Below are positions 4,081 to 64,000 of a stretch of DNA of 64,000 nucleotides, in pieces (the first letter of the stretch is position 1; every line of letters begins with the position of its first letter). The notes below the pieces were generated by a model. It was not told where the DNA came from, did not search any database, and saw nothing but the letters and a program-made list of their open reading frames with translations. The translations under genes and the position numbers were made by a program. The DNA is from the human T2T-CHM13v2.0 reference genome, Homo sapiens, in NCBI RefSeq assembly GCF_009914755.1, contig NC_060933.1; one strand, written 5' to 3'.

Positions 4081-4483
4081 TTTAAAACAGTAATTACAAA
4101 TACTGTTGAATTGTATCAAAATCAATTTGTTAGTGTAATTCACATGTTAAACCATCCTTGAATTCTTAGAATAAACTTCAGCAATAATAGAGGGTTTATT
4201 CTTATTCTGCCTGATAGAATTGAATAATGTTTTATTTAGGATTCTCATATTTATAGGAACAAAACATCAATATGTAGTTTTCATTTACTGTGATTTTTTT
4301 TGAGATTTTGTTATTAGAATTATGCTAACTTGGATATGACTGGGAAACTTTTTCATAACTCTATGTAAATACATATTTTTAAAAGCAGCGTAATTTTTCG
4401 CATCTTGAAAGTTTGAAAGATTTCACAGACAAAATTAGCCAGATTTATGCTTTAGTAATGTTCTTTTGGTACCTGTTCAATTA

Positions 4484-4932
4484 TTTTTTTTTAATTTTAT
4501 TATTATTATACTTTAAGTTTTAGGGTACATGTGCACAACGTGCAGGTTTTTTACATATGTATACATGTGCCATGTTGGTGTGCTGCACCCATTAACTCAT
4601 CATTTAGCATTAGGTATATCTCCTAATGCTATCCCTCTCCTCTCCCCCGACCCCACAACAGTCCCTGGTGTGTGATGTTCCCCTTCCTGTGTTCATGTGT
4701 TCTCATTGTTCAATTCCCACCTAAGAGTGAGAACATGCAGTGTTTGGTTTTTTGTCCTTGTGATAGTTTGCTGAGAATGATGGTATCCAGTTTCATCCAT
4801 GTCCCTACAAGGACTGAACTCATCATTTTTTATAGCTGCATAGTATTCCATGGTGTATATGTGCCACATTTTCTTAATCCAGTCTATCATTGTTGGACAT
4901 TTAGGTTGGTTCCAAGTCTTTGCTATTATTGT
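4484..4932 (-). mobile_element. L1PA (about L1PA4-6) 3' end with TSD
   Basis: 'ttatactttaagttttagggtacatgtgcacaacgtgcagg'. ORF 4693..4890(-) is the ORF2 C-terminus. TSD gg(t/c)acctgttcaatta at 4468-4483 and 4933-4948. Confidence 0.95.
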
Positions 4933-39464: not shown

Positions 39465-39977
39465 CTATAAATCATGCTGCTATAAAGACACATGCACATG
39501 TATGTTTACTGCGGCACTATTCACAATAGCAAAGACTTGGAACCAACCCAAATGTCCAACAATGATAGACTGGATTAAGAAAATGTGGCACATATACACC
39601 ATGGAATACTATGCAGCCATAAAAAATGATGAGTTCATGTCCTTTGTAGGGACATGGATGAAATTGGAAATCATCATTCTCAGTAAACTATCGCAAGGAC
39701 AAAAAACCAAACACCGCATATTCTCACTCATAGGTGGGAATTGAACAATGAGAACACATGGACACAGGAAGGGGAACATCACACTCTGGGGACTGTTGTG
39801 GGGTGGGGGGAGGGGGGAGGGATAGCTTTAGGAGATATACCTAATGCTAAATGACAAGTTAATGGGTGCAGCACACCAGCATGGCACATGTATACATATG
39901 TAACTAACCTGCACATTTTGCACATGTACCCTAAAACTTAAAGTATAATAATAATAAAATTAAGAAATAAAAAAAAA
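39465..39977 (+). mobile_element. Young L1PA (L1PA2/3-like) 3' end, about 510 bp
   Basis: Near-consensus ORF2 C-terminus (ORF 39502..39744), G-rich 3'UTR tract and A-tail. Has GAG, not the L1HS-Ta ACA. Confidence 0.96.
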
Positions 39978-47399: not shown

Positions 47400-48278
47400 T
47401 GTGGTAGGCACAATTATGGCCCCTGAAGATGTTCATGTCCTAATCCCTGGAACCTGTGAATATGTTACCTTACATGGCAAAAGGGAATTAGGTAGCAGAT
47501 ATAATTCAAGTTGCTTATCATCTGACCTTAAAAGAGGGACATTATCCTGGATAACCTGGGTGGGCCCAGTAGAATCATGAGGGTCCTTAAATGTAGAAAG
47601 GAAGGTAGGAGAAGAGGTCAGAGTGATGCTATGTGAGAGGAAGTCCACCTGCTGTTGTTGGCTTTGAAGATAGAGGTAGAGCGTCACAAGCCAAGGGATA
47701 TGGCTCTGTGTCTCTACGTAAATCTCATGTTGAACTGTAGTCCCCACATGTTGAAGGAGCGGGTCTGGTGGGAAGTGATTGAATCATGGGGGCAGACTTA
47801 CCCCTTGTTTTTCTCGTGATGGAGTTCTTACAAGATCTGGTTGTTTAAAAGTGTGTAGCAATTTCCGCTTCGTTCTCTCTCTCCTGCTCTGCCATGGTAA
47901 GACGTGCTTGCTTCCCCTTTGCCTTCCCGCCATGATTTTAAGTTTCCTGAGGCCTCCCAGCCATGCTTCCTGTACAGCCTGCAGAACTGTGAGTCAATTA
48001 AACCTCTTTCCTTCAGAAATTACTCAGTCTCAGGTAGTTCTTTATAGCAGAATTGACTAACACACCAAGCAATGCAGCAGCCTCTCAAAGCTGAAAAGGG
48101 TAAGAAGTGGATTCTTCCTCCAGAACCCCAGAAAGGGACATAGCCCTGTGACACCTTGATTTTAGCTCAGTGAGACCCATTTGGAACTTCTGAATACAGA
48201 AACTAAGAAAATCACTGTGCGTTGTTTTGTGCCAGTAAGTGTGTGGTAATTTTTCATGGCAGCAGTAAGAGACTAATA
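47400..48278 (+). mobile_element. MLT1D LTR split by an MST LTR
   Basis: 'tgtggtaggca.aattatggcccc..aagatgt.catgtcctaatccctggaacctgtgaatatgttaccttacatggcaaaaggga'. Confidence 0.88.
47696..48064 (+). mobile_element. MSTA/B solo LTR
   Basis: 'aaatctcatgttgaactgt...cagcctgcagaactgtgagtcaattaaacctc'. TSD ccaag at 47691-47695 and 48065-48069. Confidence 0.92.
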
Positions 48279-55170: not shown

Positions 55171-58100
55171 GTCACTTATTATCCTTGTGCCTTGCTTTTG
55201 CTTCACTGGTAAAGTGAAGGTCATAATGATTCAGGATTTTAATGAGGTCAAATGGGTCAATATATGGGAATGTGCCGTGTGTACTGTAAAGTGCTATATG
55301 CATGTGAAGGATGACAATTACCTTATAACAACCAACAAGGCTTCACTGAATACTTACAGTGTGTCCATCGTGGTTCTGAATGTCGGACTCATTCAGAATA
55401 GACTAGAACGAGCCATGCCTCCTGTCCTGAGGACCTTACAGATTAATTGGGAAGGGGCAAATGAAATAATGAAGCACTAAACTGTGATGTAAGCAACACA
55501 GCTTGCAAGAATAGAAAGGCCAATGGTGTTTCCAGTGGAAATCAAGGGCAGTTTCCTATTTTCTTCCAGCCCCTCTCACCCTCTTTTGAAAGTCATTACC
55601 CGGCCCATAGCCTGGAAGATGCAGCTCAAGTTACACATGACACCTGCAGCTACAGCCATTTGGACTGGTATCTGTGTGACCTACACTAAGCCAACTAGGA
55701 TGTCTCTCACAGGGATATGTTATTCAGGCAGTGTTGAAAAATGGTAATGTAGAGATGACACCAGATTTAATGCCATGGGGACAAATAAGTAAAGATTCTG
55801 AGAACCAGAATCAAAAATCTGGCAGTGCAAGCCTATCCATTGAATTGAGAATGGAGCAGATAAGTGGGGAAAAGTGGAGCTAAGAGACCCTGTGGTCCCA
55901 GGAAGAGCAATGCAGAATAGAAGCTGTAAGGTAGTTGCCCAGTTCACTTGAAACCTGTCTGGGTTTCTCACAATCATGTTAACTTTTCCTCAAAGTCCTA
56001 CGTTAATTCTAGTGTCACATGGCACCATAGCACATTTATGCTTAGTTTTCAAATAATAGATATTTTAAAGTAATAAAGATATTTAATAATAATATTATAC
56101 TCTTTAGTCATGTACCTGTATAGATTTAAATTGCAATTTGATTCAAGCTTACAAGATTATATGGGGATTTGATTTTTTTAACCTCTGGTTTGTAATAGAA
56201 ATTACTTTCCTTCATGCATCCGTTGCAAATTAATTGCGTTAATAATAATAACCACACTATTGTCTTATTGTATAGTGATTTACAATTAATAAAGGGATTT
56301 AACATACATTATCTCATTTGAGCCTCACAGTGACTCTGTGTGACTCAGAGAGGGTAAGTAAATTATTTAGTTACACAGCAGGATTGGGACATAAATTGAG
56401 TCCTCCTCACTCTTAATCCAGTCCCAAGGCAGATTAAAACTACAAAAGTTCAATCAGTGCATTCTCCAACCCACGCCTGAGTTAGGTATGTGTGAAGCTA
56501 TCTTTTGGAATATGACAAAGATGCTGAAGTCATTGCTGATCTTTTGAATTCACATCCCCAAAGTCCCAACAGAGGAGAAAGCTCAAATTCAGCTAAGTTC
56601 ACCAACATTCTCTGATTTCTTATTATATTCTAGCTCTGAGCTAGACTCAGGGTTTTTGTGAATGAACTTGCTGAGTCTGAAACATCTGTATTAGAACAGG
56701 TAGACACTCAAGTCTGACCTTTTAAAACATCAAGTTTAACCTTCAAGAGGTCTTCTTTACAGCAATAGAGACTGTGTTACCCAGGAACAGTGGTTGGCTG
56801 TTTTGTGGGAAACTTCCCCATCTGTTCAGCTCTGACATCTGGCTCCCAGGACACCTGATAGAGAGGATGTCAAAAGCAAAGAGCATGGTAGCTCAAGGCT
56901 TCTGATACTGAGATTAGAAACTTTCACATAATCTCATAAAACTTGAAAAATCTGCTAGATCATTCCCGGGACAATCATGCTCTCTCCCATATATTTTGAG
57001 AGGAGGGAAAAGTCCAGTTTGGTCACCATTTCCAAAGAGTGGGTGGAGAGAATGCTTCCAAATATTCCCACTCTCAAGAGAGCAGAACATTTCCTGGGAA
57101 GAAATAATAGGTGATCTGATCTCTTTGCAGTATACTCTGAGAATGGGCTGGGGCTAATGGAATGCCTGCCAGTCTGTCCCCACCCTCCAATTGCTCTGCC
57201 TCTCACGGCAGGTCCCTCTGGTCCTCCTCCCTCACAAATGCAGAGAATGATGGCAGGTTCCACAAACACAAAAGGATGCAGTGTGGTGGTTAAAATGGAC
57301 AAGAAGACGCTAAACCACTAATCATACTCCACTAGCATTCCCACCCCTCCCCAAGTGCCCCAAGATACAAAGGGAAACATTTAGACATTAAGTACAGATT
57401 AAAGAAAGCCAAAAAAGGCCACCAATGCTTAGACCCAAAGACATGACAGATCATTTGCTTCCCGTTTAAGTTGGTCTTAGGTACAATAGCTGAGATTCCT
57501 TGATTTCTGTGAAATGGAAAGAGGAACTGTCAGGTTTGGGAATTGCCCTTCAAGGCTTCTTTGTGTGTGAAAATCACAGAGCCGACCCCTAGAATGTAGA
57601 GAGGCCCACCATGTGGGACTGTTTCCTCTGGAGAAATTCCAAGCTTCCTCTTCCTGGGGCCTCCAGCCAAGGATGAGCTTCTTACCAATATCTGCTCTTG
57701 CAGAGTCCCAGGGCTCAAGAGAGCAGCATTTTGGTAGAGCTGGGGGAGGATGGAGTGCCTGCTACTGTGCTATATTCTTTCTTAAAGCAGATATCAGTCA
57801 GCTTCGCTTAAAGAGAATGTCAAATCCTATCCCTTTCTGAGTTAAGCTTCCTGGGAAGCGCTTTCAGGACTACACAGGGTATGTAATTCCAAGTGATCTT
57901 TAATCTAATTTAATTGACTCTGAGAGAACCCCTCATTTCTCCTTGGAGGGCCAAAATATTGATGGGACATTTTCAGCCCCAAAGAATTGGAAGCCAGTGA
58001 CCCCTCCATCAATAGGGGTCATTAGACCACAAGAACCTGTTGCTGCCCTGAGAAGGACAAGGTGAAGGGGGGTGGGCCAGCCCAAACCCAGAAAGAGGAA

Positions 58101-58589
58101 CCAAGATCACAGAAAGAGACAAGTATGAGCCATCCTTTAAGAGACACTGGGCATATAGGAGGGGCATTCAGTGTGGTGGTCAAGGCTGCAGGTGCAGAAG
58201 GAAAGAATAAATCTTCCAAAGGACCTACCAGTTTGCACCATTTTATACCAAAAAAAAAAAAGTAACCTGGAAAATTCATCTTGCATCCAGTGTTATCCAA
58301 AGTGAATCCCATTTTTCTCTGTGGCTTCTCTTGCTCTTTCTAAAATGCATTAATTCAACTATGTTTTAATGAAAGAGTGGAACATGCACATCTTGAGTAA
58401 ACTGACAGTTACAACTCAAAATGATGAGTAAACACTGGGGACATCTATTCCATCTGGCCTGGGAGTTTGGGGGATGAGAATGCTTTCTCTGGGGGCCAGT
58501 GCAGCACAGGAGTCCCAGAAGAGACCACAGCCAAGGACCATAGTGTGCATGAGAGATTTCATTTAGATCATTAGGGGAATTAGAAACTA

Positions 58590-58820
58590 ACCCTTATATA
58601 GTCTTCAAGTGTCAGGCACTGTTCTAAGCTCCTAGTATGTACTAAGTCATTTAATCCTCACAGTAACCCAATGAGGTATAGAATTATTTTCCTCCCTTTA
58701 TAGCTGAAGAAACGAAGGCTCAGAGATGTTGCATAGTTTGTCCGAAACCATGAGAACAGATGCCTCCGACTCTCACCCAGGCTGCCTACTCTGCTGATCA
58801 GGTTCTTAGATCCTCCTCTC
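58590..58820 (-). mobile_element. MIR
   Basis: 'gtcaggcactgttctaagc...tcatttaatcctcacagtaacccaatgaggta'. Confidence 0.8.
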
Positions 58821-59245
58821 CATGACCTGTACTATAATAAGGAAAAACTCAGACAATTGGAGCCAGAAAGCAAGGTGGGAAGCAGAGAATGAGCAATGAA
58901 GAGTAAAAGAGGAGCAGGGACTTTGAATATCATGCTAAGTTCTCATTTCTTTTACTGGGGTGCAGAGATTGCTAAGGTTCTATGATGAAAGGTCAGGGGA
59001 CATGTTAAGCCAAAATACATCATTTTAAAATTTAAAAACTTACATAAAAAATGTCTTAAGTGTGTATTCAAATTATTGTGATATACCCCCCAAAAGTAAC
59101 AACAACCAACTACTTGATCTTACAAAAGCACAGGGTTTAAAAAACAAAGTCATCTTAATTTTATTTCCTATCGGTAAATTTCCTGATAATGCAAAAGTAT
59201 AAACAATTCTTCTGTGTGAATATGTGTATGTTATTTGGGGACTTG

Positions 59246-59385
59246 TTTTTTAAATTTTTATGGGTACAGAGTAGTTGTATATATTTATGGGGTACATGAG
59301 ATGTTTTGGTACATACTTACAATATGAAATAAGCACATCATGGAGAATGGGGTATCCTTCGAGTTACAAACCATTCAGTTGCACA
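59246..59385 (-). mobile_element. L1MA 3' end fragment
   Basis: 'tttttatgggtacagagtagttgtatatatttatggggtacatgagatgttttg'. Confidence 0.8.
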
Positions 59386-60802
59386 GTTAAAGTATAACAA
59401 CCTTGAATTTGAAAGTATTTATCAGTGGTTAAAAACCAGAAGTTTTCAGCATAAACTTGAAAGTAGTAAAAATCTGCAAAATGTGCAAAATTCAGCTTAA
59501 CTTAAAATCACTGGCCACTATGAGAGCCATGGCCTTGACCCAAGATTCCTCATAATTAACCACAACTAGTGGATCAATAGATTATTTCAGAAACTAGCTG
59601 TAAAAGCTTATGCTTAAATAGTTCTTAAAATATAAGCCTTATTGTTGTATAATATTTTGCTTCCACAGGGCCTAAACATTGTTATCTCTTGTGGAAGGAG
59701 ATTTTGAATCATAAATCTATAGACACATAGTTTTGGCATTCATTAATTTTAATTCCTGCAAATTTTGTAGAACAATGATCCAAACTTTTTGAACCCAAAA
59801 ACATAATTTAGATGGGATCAATATGATTTTTAAAAAGTGAAACAAACAAAACACTTCTTCTGAGTTCAATATCAGAATCATCTTTAAAGGTGAAATATAA
59901 GTAATGGGGAAAAAATAAAGATACAACCAAACCTAGTTGAGGTCAAAAAAAGGCAGCCATGCTGAAAAAGCATGCCATTCTTGAGTGACATGATCACATC
60001 TTGCTTTTTAATATGGTTAGAAGTGCATTCTTGAATAACTGGTTGAAAAACTAAAGTTAATCTGATTCTTTAAAGTCTATATAAAACACTATTGCCAATC
60101 GTGGTTATTTCATTTGTCATTCCTATAGTATTTTCAAATTCAGAGTACTTGGGTTAAAATGTTTATTTGTAAAGTAGCAAAATAATAGAAGTATTTTCAA
60201 AATGATATGTAATTTTAACTAAGCTTATATATGTGTAAAAATAATATATACATAGATAAACACATAAGATTTGTGTGCTCGGAAGTGAAAATAGCTCACA
60301 TTAAGACTACTATGCATCCTTGAATATGTCAGTCACCTTTGCATTATTCTCTGAGAATGCATCACCCCAAAAATATATCTCTTGAATTTCTTGGTATGTT
60401 CAATATGGCAGAAAACTGAGAAATCATGTTTATTAAATAGTGGTAGAGAGATTATTTTACAATAAAGCTTAAATAAAATAAGATGTGACTTTGAAAACTT
60501 ACTCTACTCTGCAAAGAGTGTATTGGTTTAACAAGAGAAATAATCAGGTTGTGATTTTTTCATGAAGGGCTAAACAGCCCTTTTTATCTTAGAAGGGAAA
60601 AAAAAAACAGAACAAAGAATGGGAACCTGGATAAAGAGAAGGATTTAATTGTTCACCTCAATGATTAAAAAGTGACACACAAATTTTGGTTTTTTAGAGA
60701 TATTTCAAACCTTTCCATGACCAAATGAAAGACAAACCAATTGTTTTTATTGCAACAAAGTAAAGTTTGAGAATTGAATGATGAATAATGGGACTTTACT
60801 GA

Positions 60803-61088
60803 CTTTACTATGCTTAGAACCCAATTCCTATTTCATAGATAGATGTTTATTAAATAAAGAAAACACATTATAACTTCCACCTTCTAAATAGCTGATTACC
60901 TGGAAATAGACCTAGATTGTCACGTTCCTATCTGGTGACTTTATCTTCTCGCCTCAGCTGAATGCAGGTAGAAGTGTCTTGCCAATTAAGATCCCTTCAA
61001 ATAGAAATTTTGAATTAGAGTCTTGAAACACTGAATCAATTAATTATGAGTAGCTTAGACATCCAGTTATAAACAGCCAGGTTAGTAG
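60803..61088. repeat. Left arm of 286-bp inverted duplication
   Basis: Reverse complement of 61803-62088 with 9 substitutions and no indels (hand alignment). Confidence 0.98.
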
Positions 61089-61107
61089 TTTAACAAGAGA
61101 AATAATA

Positions 61108-61253
61108 CAGCGAGACTGTATACTTTATCATCCAAATCAGTAATTAAAGTGTGTCCTATTATTTGGCAAATAAAGTTTGCCCTATTTATTAATATACCAG
61201 CATAATGTGATAAACTGGGAGTGTCAAGATACTCGAATAAATGTGGTCGCCAC
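61108..61253. mobile_element. MER81-like (hAT-Blackjack) MITE, degraded, in the inverted-repeat spacer
   Basis: 'tttatcatccaaa...tattaat...taaactgggagtgtc...tgtggtcgccac' resembles the MER81 consensus. Confidence 0.55.
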
Positions 61254-61802
61254 ATATTTATTGGTGGAATAAGATGGGCCCTACTTCCTCAGATACCCGC
61301 CCACCTAAAAAAAACAAAAAGAATAAAAAAGAAAATTTAATGTGGCATTTTTTCTCTGAAATAGTGAAAGAGGTTGACAAGTGAACTATGGACAATTAAT
61401 ACCATCTATACCATAAGAGTCTTGAGATTGAGATGGGCCCCTTCCATTTCTGATGTTGTACCCCATGGCTGTATGTGTTTATCTGCTTGCCTCCTTGTGA
61501 GTATTTCTCTGGAAGAGTTCAAAAATAATTATGTAGGAATGGGAAACACTGAAGAATAGAGCAGGGAGAGGCCTTACAAAACTGGATTCTAGATGGATTC
61601 CTCACTGTAGCTGCAGAGAAGCTGACGAAGAGAGGTGGGATGAAAATAAAGAGGGGGATTCAAAACTGATGTAGTCAGTTGCCCAAGTGAGAAATAATGA
61701 GAGCTGGAGCTATGGCCTTGACTCTCAGTTGAGAACATATTAAAGAGATGAGAAGCTTTACCACTTCAGGTCATAAGCAGCTTTGGTCAACCATGGAGAC
61801 TC

Positions 61803-62088
61803 CTACTAACCTGGCTGTTTATAACTGGATGTCTAAGCTACTCATAATTAATTGATTCAGTGTTTCAAGAGTCTAATTCAAAATTTCTATTTGAAGGGAT
61901 CTGAATTGGCAAGACACTTCTACCTGCATGCAGCTGAGGCCAGAAGATAAAGTCACCACATAGGAACATGACAATCTAGGTCTATTTCCAGGTAATCAGG
62001 TATTCAGAAGATGGAAGTTATAATGTGTTTTCTTTATTTAATAAACATCTATCTATGAAATAGGAATTGGGTTCTAAGCATAGTAAAG
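61803..62088. repeat. Right arm of 286-bp inverted duplication
   Basis: Reverse complement of 60803-61088, 96.9% identical. Confidence 0.98.
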
Positions 62089-62539
62089 GATAAAGAAAAA
62101 ATAAATGGAAGGAAATTAACACTTATTAAAAGGTGGCAATGTGTTCCACACACTTATTCTTCATGATACTTCCTTGTGGTAACTGCTGTTCCTGCTTTAT
62201 AGATGGAGTGAGGTAAATTTCCCATGGTCACATGGCTGTTAACACGGGACTCCGAATTCAAGACAGACACATTCTGCCTCTAAACCACAGGTTTCTCCAG
62301 CCTCTGCCCAGTGTGGCTTGAGCTGGCATGAGAGGGAGAATGGCCTTTAGGACCTCCCCACTTGGAATAACAATTCACTTCCTGGCGAGAAAACAGGAAG
62401 CCCCCAATATGGTCCCTTCCTGACTATCCTCTCTCTGAAACAAGTAGGTCTTCCTCAAATTCTTTTCATGATTAAATTTTATCCCTAAAGGCCCCAAATG
62501 AGGTCACTTATATCTGTGAGTTCCAGTTCTACTTCACCT

Positions 62540-62880
62540 ATTTAATTAACAAATTTTAACCCAGTGCCTTCCCTGTGCCAAGCTTGAGACCACACCACCA
62601 GATATTTAAAGGCTGACCTTGCCTTTAAGGAGCTCTCAGCCTGGCAGAAGAAATGGGACATGAGCATAGATCATCAAAATGCAAGGCAAACACAGATGAG
62701 TAATTGCAGTGATGTGAAAATTTTAGGAGAGATCATCCAGGTAAAACTTCCAGACAAGAAGACATTTGGAATGGCCTAGAAAGAGACATTGAAGTTCCAT
62801 ATGTGGCATTGGCATAAAACATCTCAGGTTGGGGAAAGGTATAAGCAGAGGCCTGGAGGCTGATACTGAGGAGCCTGCAA
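62540..62880 (-). mobile_element. L2 fragment
   Basis: 'ccttgcctttaaggagctctcagcctgg' and neighbouring antisense L2 3' motifs. Confidence 0.55.
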
Positions 62881-63559
62881 GAACAGCAGGAAGGAGTGCA
62901 GTGAGGATGAAGCTCATGTGGATGCAGTGAGGAGTGGGTACTGGATGTCTTTGCCCACTCTGACACTGACATTCAAGAGTTTGATTGGATTCCTGGTTAT
63001 TCTCAGGAGGGGCTGCAGCAATCTTTGAGGCTGGTGCAAGGCTGAGCACTTCTATCTTTGTGCAGTCTTTCTCCTTTTGATCAGTCCCTGGACATATGAA
63101 ATCCACCTCCTCTCCTCATACTCAAGTATCAAACCTCATACTTGTATTCAAAATGGTGTCAAAAAAAGGAGAAGAAAAGGGCAATTGATTTGAATGTTTC
63201 AGTCATTTCCTTGGGAACACACTGAGCTTTTACTCTGGGGTGACTGTGAAAAAGACTCTGCCTGTGATTAGATCTGTCAGGCAGTGGCTGTGTTACACCA
63301 GATACCTGGGGAAATAAAACCACGGGCAATTGCCAATGTCTGCATGCCCAGAGAGCTGTCTGCCGTGCAGTACAATAACGGGCAAGTTTGTGTGCATGCG
63401 TATAGGAACCATTTGGCCAGGACTTGGCAGGGGGATTCTAGATTTGAATCAGGGTGGGAAAGATGATCTCTAAGGCTCCAACTCAAATCTCGGATTGCAT
63501 GACTCTGTATATGCAGCCAGAGGCACACAATGAAAAGATGGCTAAGGGTATGTAGAGTG

Positions 63560-64000
63560 AACAGGTAGGTCCCCACTTTACTTCCCATCTTATCTGTATC
63601 CATTTCAAATACCATGCAGCTACCAGAGTGCCATTTCTACAAAATAAATGCAACCATGTCATCCTCCCTTTCCTGCTTAGAAACCTCAATGTTTCCAATT
63701 ATCTAGAGGATAAAGTCCAAACCACTCAAGACTTACCATGACCTAGCCTCAGACTAATTTTCCAGCTTCATCTCTCATCAGTCCCCACTTTACCGTTTAC
63801 ACTCCAGCAACAGTGGCTTTGCAGGTCCTGCACTCACTTCCTGCTTATATTGCTTTCCTCTTGCCCCCCACCCCCCCGCCTCTCTCTCACACACACACAC
63901 ACACATCTAAAATGTCTGTCTCAATCTTGCCTCCCAGTTAATATTACCCCATTTTTCTCAAGACTCAGTTCTTACCTCTTTTAGAAACCTTCCCTGATCA
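63560..64000 (+). mobile_element. L2 fragment with (CA)n at about 63887-63905
   Basis: 'ccagagtg...atgtcatcctccc..ctgcttagaaacctcaatg...aggataaagtccaaa'. Confidence 0.75.

What the first reader, a model, noticed from the sequence alone, without database searches (positions are those of the whole stretch)
60803..62088. 286-bp near-perfect inverted duplication enclosing a 714-bp spacer
Seen: 60803-61088 is the reverse complement of 61803-62088, with 9 mismatches (left-arm positions 60880, 60886, 60891, 60923, 60932, 60950, 60961, 60988, 61020), no indels, and perfect terminal blocks of 77 and 68 bp. The arms are not Alu or young L1. They look like very old, decayed sequence (an LTR16/ERVL-like piece plus an L2 tail), so 97% identity cannot come from two independent insertions. 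It needs a local duplication or ongoing arm-to-arm gene conversion. Established: close inverted repeats of this size mediate recurrent NAHR inversions and fold-back structures, and when transcribed give long dsRNA for ADAR, Dicer or MDA5. Inference: this is either an invertible ~0.7-kb segment or a non-Alu long-hairpin RNA locus.
Basis: partly seen in the sequence, partly recalled or inferred. Interest (0 to 1): 0.85.

Follow-up and report, generated by a model that had tools for sequence, protein, structure and literature searches.

The report
Old local inverted duplication scar
A 286-base stretch of human chromosome 9 was copied in reverse orientation about 0.7 kb away millions of years ago, probably by a DNA-copying slip, and nothing seen here suggests it does anything today.

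Summary
60803-61088 is the reverse complement of 61803-62088: 286 nt, 9 mismatches at the listed positions, no indels, a 714-nt spacer and unrelated flanks. The arm has only these two copies in the whole T2T genome. A control repeat from the same window gave 3,217 candidates, so the arms are not a young or mid-age transposon pair.

New here are scars at both edges of the left arm. A perfect 19-nt direct repeat (60526-60544 and 61088-61106) starts on the arm's last base; it occurs exactly twice in 3.1 Gb. A perfect 9-bp tandem duplication straddles the outer edge.

I read the whole as one replication- or repair-based template-switch event with a templated insertion. It dates to roughly 13-32 My (9/286 differences).

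I found no RNA family, no ORF over 68 aa, and no listing in the three inversion or SV supplement sets I could search. The arms are shorter than any validated NAHR inversion repeat (654 bp or more), and the longest perfect block is 77 bp.

Which arm is the copy, whether the spacer flipped, whether the locus is polymorphic, and whether it is transcribed could not be tested. This is an ordinary structural relic of a known kind.

The parts
60803..61088 (+). Left arm of the inverted duplication (286 nt). It carries the only 2 CpGs at mismatch sites.
61803..62088 (-). Right arm, the reverse complement of the left arm: 277 of 286 identical, no indels.
61089..61802 (.). 714-nt spacer, single-copy in the genome at BLAST level. 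No ORF over 68 aa and no Rfam match. It contains an A-rich tract at 61306-61335.
61088..61106 (+). Second copy of a perfect 19-nt direct repeat. It begins on the last base of the left arm and runs 18 nt into the spacer. I read it as a templated insertion at a novel junction, with a 1-nt overlap (G).
60526..60544 (+). First copy (presumed template) of the 19-nt direct repeat, 562 nt upstream of the second copy. These are the only two exact copies in the 3.1-Gb genome.
60792..60809 (+). Perfect 9-bp tandem duplication (GACTTTACT x2) straddling the outer boundary of the left arm. The arm starts at the third base of the second unit.

Best explanation
This is a relic of one local, non-homologous rearrangement. 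During replication or break repair a growing DNA strand left its template and copied 286 nt of nearby sequence from the complementary strand. That made a reverse-complement copy about 0.7 kb from the original. The strand then returned, with a short extra excursion that copied 18 nt from a site 544-562 nt upstream into one junction. This is the template-switch class: the four-point model, FoSTeS/MMBIR, or polymerase-driven end joining with templated insertion. The event is old. The two copies have since diverged by 9 substitutions, 3.1%, which corresponds to roughly 13-32 million years under plain neutral decay. Today the structure is most likely inert DNA in an intron of a predicted lncRNA in a gene desert. 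Shown: the inverted duplication, its uniqueness in the genome, the sharp edges and the two junction-linked short duplications. Inferred: the template-switch mechanism, the age and the lack of present function. Unresolved: which arm is the copy, and whether the spacer was inverted in the same event.
For: (1) The homology is exactly bounded, gap-free and reverse-complement, with unrelated flanks on all four sides. (2) The arm has 2 of 2 genome-wide matches, both at this locus. The flanks and spacer are single-copy. The same search finds 3,217 candidates, with 40 of 40 scored at 75-82% identity, for an old interspersed repeat from the same window. Two independent transposon insertions and a TIR element are therefore excluded down to about 75% identity. 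(3) A perfect 19-nt direct repeat abuts the inner edge of the left arm. Genome-wide the word has 2 exact copies, both here. With up to 2 mismatches it has 276 hits against 263 for the reversed control, so it is not a repeat-family word and its position at a junction is not chance. (4) A perfect 9-bp tandem duplication straddles the outer edge of the same arm. Only 8 such duplications (unit 8-12 nt) exist in 64 kb, and 0.011 would be expected to overlap any of the four junctions. (5) In the four-point model a reverse-complement copy that overlaps the normally copied stretch 'creates a novel inverted repeat', and the model includes inversions flanked by inverted repeats (PMC5453318, abstract and section 4). 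Among the human inversions of PMC6748972, 18 non-homologous ones carry small insertions or deletions attributed to a single FoSTeS/MMBIR event (passage). (6) Against a present function: 0 Rfam matches at E <= 1 and no stop-to-stop ORF over 68 aa.
Against: No outgroup or second human haplotype could be examined, so the ancestral state is inferred, not seen. At the exact junctions the microhomology is only 0-1 nt. The 7-nt identity at the outer edge is offset by 2 nt, so it does not fit a simple microhomology-primed switch. The two scars flank the left arm, which suggests that arm is the inserted copy. My visual impression, from recall only and not reproduced by any tool, is that an old SINE-like element runs across the left outer edge, which would make the left arm the original. 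These two leads conflict. The mismatches are unusual for plain neutral decay: 6 of 9 are transversions (P about 0.04), 4 of 9 are C<->G (P about 0.006), and all 9 lie in the central 141 nt (P about 0.015). All of these are post-hoc tests. This could mean complex mutation events or partial arm-to-arm conversion, either of which would make the age estimate unreliable. Lack of function is an absence of evidence, because transcription, editing and small RNAs were not testable.
Confidence: 0.6

Rival explanations
1. Invertible segment: the two arms recombine (NAHR), so the 714-nt spacer exists in both orientations in humans, perhaps recurrently.
For: The architecture is right: inverted arms 97% identical, close together. 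A similar small case exists. HsInv0061 is a 1,674-bp inversion flanked by 654/656-bp repeats of 'unique sequence + several TEs', 99.7% identical (PMC6748972, supplementary file 10).
Against: The arms are 286 bp and the longest uninterrupted identity is 77 bp. Validated human NAHR inversions in that study use repeats of 654 bp to 24.2 kb (passage). The locus is absent from that study's 3 chr9 inversions (files 13-14 not searched). The strings 118604, 118605 and 118606 gave no hit at this locus in the supplement tables of PMC12350169 and PMC12350158 (both files were cut when stored and may not hold full call sets). The abstract of 10.1101/2021.12.20.472354 (search listing) says about 85% of polymorphic inversions under 2 kb come from L1 twin priming, and nothing seen here points to it (no third copy of the arm; no poly(A) at the arm edges).
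Confidence: 0.1
2. The arms are much older than 3% divergence suggests and are kept alike by arm-to-arm gene conversion or repeated template switching (concerted evolution).
For: All 9 mismatches lie in the central 141 nt, with perfect 77- and 68-nt ends: P about 0.015 for so narrow a span and 0.003 for both ends being that clean (post hoc). Template switching between imperfect arms is reported to create and maintain hairpins (PMC8794818, title and abstract in the search listing).
Against: Conversion is usually least efficient at the edges of homology, and here the edges are the clean part. Two perfect blocks of 68 nt or more anywhere arise in 12% of random placements. Three mismatches within 12 nt may be a single event, which weakens the statistics. 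The 19-nt repeat is also perfect, as expected for 19 nt at 3% divergence, so no separate clock contradicts a single age.
Confidence: 0.15
3. Functional long-hairpin RNA locus: transcription through both arms gives a 286-bp near-perfect dsRNA that is edited by ADAR, diced into small RNAs or sensed by MDA5.
For: Folded as RNA, the 1,286-nt unit forms the full-length stem (minimum free energy -631 kcal/mol). The locus lies inside the span of a predicted + strand lncRNA (hub annotation). Long, highly paired dsRNA is rare: 2,018 of 5,134,754 predictions exceed both 300 bp and 96% pairing (PMC11838218, section 10).
Against: No exon of the lncRNA lies in the window (hub annotation), so any hairpin would be intronic and nuclear. 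No Rfam family matches. At 286 bp the stem falls just short of that paper's 300-bp class, 74% of whose members are unedited and 88% intergenic. No expression, editing or small-RNA data could be consulted. Inverted duplicates as such are very common: 4,315,271 in human with arms of 10-10,000 nt and spacers up to 1,000 nt (PMC5398296, section 12).
Confidence: 0.05
4. Transposon origin: either one element with 286-bp terminal inverted repeats, or two copies of the same element inserted head to head.
For: Long terminal inverted repeats around an internal segment are the layout of some DNA transposons.
Against: There are only 2 copies of the arm in 3.1 Gb, against 3,217 candidates for a control repeat. 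The spacer and flanks are single-copy. No target-site duplication flanks the whole unit (bases outside 60803 and 62088). There is no transposase-size ORF. Independent old insertions could not be 97% alike.
Confidence: 0.02
5. Assembly artefact (fold-back chimera) in the T2T assembly.
For: Inverted duplications are a known artefact class of some library preparations (recalled).
Against: The arms differ at 9 positions and are separated by 714 nt of unique sequence. A chimeric read artefact would give identical arms and no such spacer. Raw reads were not examined.
Confidence: 0.01

Closest known systems
Template-switch mutations under the four-point model (Loytynoja & Goldman 2017, PMC5453318; abstract and section 4 read), and the larger-scale FoSTeS/MMBIR rearrangements
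   Same: A reverse-complement copy of nearby sequence is placed close to its source. When the copied fragment overlaps normally replicated sequence, a new inverted repeat arises, optionally with the intervening segment inverted. Edges are sharp, junction homology is little or none, and short templated extras occur.
   Different: The events catalogued in that paper are short mutation clusters. Here the copied piece is 286 nt, the distance is about 0.7-1 kb, and a second short excursion (18 nt) is needed, which the authors say their model does not attempt to cover. The ancestral state was not observed here.
HsInv0061, a human polymorphic inversion (Giner-Delgado et al. 2019, PMC6748972; supplementary file 10 row and main-text passages read)
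   Same: A small segment (1,674 bp) lies between inverted repeats made of unique sequence plus old transposon fragments. It is in an ordinary genomic region and is inferred to have a single origin.
   Different: Its repeats are 654/656 bp at 99.7% identity and both orientations segregate in humans. Here the arms are 286 bp at 96.9%, the longest perfect block is 77 bp, and no second orientation is known.
Long, highly paired predicted dsRNAs of the human genome (dsRNAscan, PMC11838218; introduction passages and section 10 read)
   Same: A near-perfect intramolecular duplex of about 300 bp, 96.9% paired, is encoded by an inverted repeat and lies mostly outside exons.
   Different: Most of the 2,018 members are inverted LINE pairs, whereas these arms have no other copy in the genome. 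At 286 bp this one is under their 300-bp cut. Transcription is unknown.
Inversions flanked by inverted duplications made by staggered breaks, described for Drosophila
   Same: The end product is original segment, inverted spacer, then inverted copy of the segment. That is one of the two histories compatible with the scars here.
   Different: That model joins ends without templated insertions. Nothing here shows that the spacer was inverted.

Membership tests
Template-switch / FoSTeS-MMBIR inverted duplication | Reverse-complement copy of sequence lying nearby on the same chromosome | tested here: met
   286 nt, 277 of 286 identical, 714 nt apart; no other copy in the genome
Template-switch / FoSTeS-MMBIR inverted duplication | Junctions without extended homology, with microhomology and/or short templated insertions from nearby sequence | tested here: met
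   Flanks match 13 of 60 on each side. An 18-nt insertion-like copy of 60527-60544 sits at the arm/spacer junction with a 1-nt overlap. The word is unique to these two sites in 3.1 Gb. A 9-bp tandem duplication lies on the other edge.
Template-switch / FoSTeS-MMBIR inverted duplication | An ancestral allele without the copy (outgroup or other haplotype) | not testable with these tools
   No other primate or human genome is held (tool statement: 'It has no relatives here')
NAHR-mediated (inverted-repeat-flanked) polymorphic inversion | Highly identical inverted repeats at both breakpoints | tested here: met
   Arms 96.9% identical in inverted orientation
NAHR-mediated (inverted-repeat-flanked) polymorphic inversion | Repeat length in the range seen for validated human cases | tested here: not met
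   286 bp, longest perfect block 77 bp, against 654 bp-24.2 kb (PMC6748972)
NAHR-mediated (inverted-repeat-flanked) polymorphic inversion | Both orientations present among individuals | not testable with these tools
   Only indirect evidence: the locus is absent from the supplement tables searched, which are incomplete
DNA transposon with terminal inverted repeats / head-to-head transposon pair | Many related copies elsewhere in the genome | tested here: not met
   2 of 2 matches are the locus itself. The control repeat gave 3,217 candidates, 40 of 40 scored at 75-82%.
DNA transposon with terminal inverted repeats / head-to-head transposon pair | Target-site duplication flanking the unit | tested here: not met
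   Bases outside 60803 and 62088 are unrelated
L1 twin-priming inversion | L1 sequence, a poly(A) end and a target-site duplication around the whole insertion | tested here: not met
   The arm has no third copy in the genome, there is no poly(A) at either outer edge, and the 19-nt repeat does not flank the whole unit. That the arms are not L1 sequence was not tested against any L1 model.
Long hairpin RNA / ADAR-Dicer-MDA5 substrate locus | Ability to form a long, nearly perfect duplex | tested here: met
   The predicted fold pairs the two arms over their full length, -631 kcal/mol
Long hairpin RNA / ADAR-Dicer-MDA5 substrate locus | Transcription across both arms; editing or small RNAs | not testable with these tools
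   No expression data are available. Rfam gives 0 matches. The lncRNA has no exon in the window (hub annotation).
Palindrome maintained by arm-to-arm gene conversion | Arm identity far higher than the age of the structure allows (arms group by species) | not testable with these tools
   Only the within-genome pattern is available: mismatches are confined to the central 141 nt, which is suggestive at most

The most novel reading that the evidence does not exclude
The perfect 77- and 68-nt arm ends and the transversion-rich central mismatches might mean the arms still exchange sequence. In that case this non-transposon 286-bp repeat would be a live element. It would flip its 0.7-kb spacer or re-template its arms in the germline. 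When the host lncRNA intron is transcribed, it would supply one of the few near-perfect non-Alu, non-LINE dsRNAs of about 300 bp in the human genome.
Probability: 0.06. Interest if true: 0.55.

Novelty: new member of a known kind. Interest (0 to 1): 0.22.

Why it matters
In itself it matters little. It is one more long inverted repeat among very many, in a gene desert, with no sign of function. Its modest value is as a clean, datable example of a few-hundred-base template-switch inverted duplication in unique human sequence that still carries readable junction scars: an 18-nt templated insertion and a 9-bp duplication. It sits between the tens-of-bases events catalogued in human-chimp comparisons and the kilobase-to-megabase rearrangements studied in patients. 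If ape genomes show the pre-duplication state, the locus would give an exact before-and-after picture of such an event. It would also give a small natural test of whether 286-bp arms 0.7 kb apart ever recombine.

Tried and rejected
(1) Naming the old repeats in and around the arms failed. Single-sequence nhmmer and BLAST of the arms, flanks and spacer found nothing beyond the arm pair, either in the window or in 264 kb (the window plus 200 kb of neighbouring chr9). All-against-all BLAST of the 264 kb recovered only the large young and mid-age families. An iterated nhmmer profile drifted to Alu. After masking, the profile gave no significant hit in the held-out half (best E 0.2), so its apparent matches were overfitting. 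A three-seed profile of the pieces that look SINE-like to me gave 40-46% pairwise identity and no hit (best E 0.58). Genome searches with a 30-mer (up to 3 mismatches) and with 62100-62330 found only the query itself. The 'LTR16/L2' label and my own recalled SINE-like impression therefore remain untested.

(2) Looking for this locus as a known inversion or SV gave nothing. It is not among the 3 chr9 inversions of PMC6748972 (2 of 14 files not searched). The strings 118604, 118605 and 118606 gave no relevant hit in the supplements of PMC12350169 and PMC12350158 (both files were cut when stored, and coordinates may be GRCh38 rather than T2T). Porubsky et al. 2022 (Cell) and Warburton et al. 2004 are not held, and bioRxiv supplements are closed. 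These searches cannot show that the locus is unreported.

(3) I rejected reading the 19-nt repeat as a target-site duplication of an inserted 543-bp block (60545-61087). That needs a source for the 258 bp left of the arm, and none exists in the genome.

(4) I rejected L1 twin priming, a TIR transposon and an assembly artefact; the reasons are under the rivals.

Full report
**Observation.** The repeat finder gives arms 60803-61088 and 61803-62088, 286 nt, 97% complementary, 714 nt apart. My base-by-base comparison finds 9 mismatches at exactly the nine listed positions and no indel. The perfect end blocks are 77 and 68 nt. Outside and inside the arms the similarity drops to background at once, 13 of 60 matches on each side. 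Within the 64-kb window this is the second-longest of 30 inverted pairs and the most identical one over 120 nt.

**Copy number.** The whole T2T assembly could be searched. The arm has two matches in 3.1 Gb, itself and its partner, with 2 first-look candidates and 2 scored. Queries covering the left flank, arm and most of the spacer (60200-61700) and the rest of the spacer, right arm and right flank (61650-63400) also return only the locus. The tool warns that it skips very common words and scores only the best candidates, so I ran a positive control. An old interspersed repeat from the same window (47400-47650) gave 3,217 candidates, and 40 of 40 scored matches were at 75-82% identity. The arms therefore belong to no family with copies above roughly 75% identity.

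No repeat library is at hand. My attempts to build a profile of old repeats from the window plus 200 kb of neighbouring sequence failed or overfitted. By eye and from memory, three places (about 60640-60860 on +, 61600-61780 on -, 62110-62300 on -) look like an old SINE. I give this no weight as evidence.

**Junction anatomy.** One search listed a 24-nt direct repeat (22 of 24 identical). A scan for exact matches of 11 nt or more near the four arm edges sharpened it. A perfect 19-mer, GTTTAACAAGAGAAATAAT, lies at 60526-60544 and again at 61088-61106. The second copy begins on the last base of the left arm and runs 18 nt into the spacer. Apart from a (CA)n run and an AT-rich 14-mer, it is the only non-arm exact match of 14 nt or more in 58500-64000.

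Genome-wide this word occurs exactly twice, both times here. With up to 2 mismatches it has 276 hits against 263 for the reversed control. It is therefore not part of any repeat family, and a second perfect copy 562 nt away, flush with an arm edge, is not chance.

At the other edge of the same arm, Tandem Repeats Finder and my own count show a perfect 9-bp tandem duplication (GACTTTACT x2, 60792-60809), with the arm starting at base 3 of the second unit. Only 8 perfect tandem duplications with units of 8-12 nt occur in the 64 kb, so about 0.011 would be expected to overlap any of the four edges. No comparable feature sits at the right arm's edges. The 7 nt just outside its outer edge do resemble the same motif (5 of 7, with a 2-nt gap), which may or may not be meaningful.

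**Mechanism.** A gap-free reverse-complement copy of nearby unique sequence, with sharp edges and a short templated insertion drawn from a few hundred bases away, is the signature of replication- or repair-linked template switching. In the four-point model (PMC5453318; abstract and section 4 read) the copy consists of L->1, the reverse complement of 2->3, then 4->R. [quoted passage not shown]

Two histories fit the finding that the arm/spacer junction 61088|61089 is novel.
- **(a) Left arm inserted.** The left arm is an inserted reverse copy of the right arm, placed between 60802 and the spacer and followed by the 18-nt excursion.
- **(b) Segment inverted.** The segment 'left arm + spacer' was re-copied in reverse after the left arm had already been copied. 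This duplicates the arm and inverts the spacer, with the 18-nt excursion at the first switch.

The two scars flanking the left arm favour (a). In (b) the 9-bp repeat would have to pre-exist and mark the point where copying stopped. My recalled impression of an old element running across 60802|60803 would favour (b), but it is untested.

A third idea treats the 19-mer as a target-site duplication around an inserted block 60545-61087. It needs a source for 258 bp that has no other copy in the genome, so I reject it. In the human inversions of PMC6748972, 18 non-homologous ones carry small insertions or deletions attributed to a single FoSTeS/MMBIR event (passage), so the class is well known.

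**Age.** Nine differences in 286 nt give 3.15% (3.2% corrected). At 0.5-1.2e-9 substitutions per site per year per lineage this is about 13-32 My, and the Poisson range on 9 events widens it to about 6-60 My. The 19-mer being perfect is compatible, since 0.6 differences are expected.

Three caveats apply.
- Six of 9 differences are transversions (P about 0.04) and 4 are C<->G (P about 0.006).
- All 9 lie in the central 141 nt (P about 0.015). These are post-hoc tests.
- Three differences fall within 12 nt (60880-60891). Two of them make the right arm more periodic, giving an 8-nt unit x2.4 at 61989-62007. They may be one complex event.

The clock is therefore rough, and partial arm-to-arm conversion cannot be excluded.

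**Present function.** Nothing points to one. Rfam has no match at E <= 1 in 58000-64000. The longest stop-to-stop ORF overlapping 60400-62500 is 68 aa.

As RNA, the unit would fold into the full 286-bp stem (-631 kcal/mol), but that follows from the repeat itself. The window holds no exon of the predicted lncRNA that spans it (hub annotation), so any hairpin would be intronic. For scale:
- Chen et al. count 4,315,271 inverted duplicates in human, with arms of 10-10,000 nt and spacers up to 1,000 nt (PMC5398296, section 12).
- dsRNAscan predicts 5,134,754 dsRNAs, of which 31,017 are over 96% paired and 2,018 are both over 300 bp and over 96% paired. The latter are mostly inverted LINEs; 88% are intergenic and 74% unedited (PMC11838218, section 10).
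- LIRBase keeps only arms over 400 nt (PMC8728187, passages).

This repeat is thus at the rare, long, well-paired end of a very common kind, and it is unusual in being made of single-copy sequence.

**Inversion potential.** Validated human NAHR inversions use repeats of 654 bp to 24.2 kb at over 90% identity (PMC6748972). The nearest analogue is HsInv0061: 654/656-bp repeats, 99.7% identical, around 1,674 bp (supplementary file 10), with a single origin (passage). With 286-bp arms and at most 77 bp of unbroken identity, recurrent NAHR here seems unlikely but is not excluded. I found no record of the locus in the supplements I could search. Those are incomplete, and the most relevant call set (Porubsky et al. 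2022) is not held.

**Verdict.** This is a real, old, local inverted duplication with legible template-switch scars. It is a new instance of a known kind, probably inert, and of low general interest. The decisive work is comparison with ape and monkey assemblies and with human pangenome haplotypes, which these tools do not allow.

Noticed in passing
window 4481-4927 and 39525-39973: Two inverted copies of one repeat lie 35 kb apart (330 nt at 92% plus 113 nt at 98%). Both are inside stretches that NCBI masks as repeats. This is probably two insertions of a fairly young interspersed element.
   Followed up: no
window 60880-60891 and 61989-62011: Three of the nine arm mismatches fall within 12 nt. 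In the right arm, two of them turn the sequence into an 8-nt unit repeated 2.4 times (CAGGTAAT, TRF score 31). This suggests one slippage or templated multi-base mutation rather than independent substitutions.
   Followed up: partly
window 60426-60439, 60843-60856, 62035-62048: An AT-rich 14-mer (ATGTTTATTAAATA) upstream of the locus recurs inside both arms. It could be chance in AT-rich DNA or a shared old repeat tail.
   Followed up: no
window about 60640-60860 (+), 61600-61780 (-), 62110-62300 (-): By eye and from memory only, these three stretches resemble an ancient SINE. The first would run across the left arm's outer edge. No tool test reproduced this: pairwise identity was 40-46% and no profile hits were found.
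   Followed up: partly
window 61306-61335 and 60597-60610: There are A-rich tracts in the spacer and in the left flank, possibly remnants of old retroposon tails.
   Followed up: no
window 63888-63905: A short (CA)n microsatellite.
   Followed up: no
window 47400-47650: This is an old interspersed repeat with thousands of genomic relatives at 75-82% identity (3,217 first-look candidates). I used it only as a positive control for the genome search.
   Followed up: no
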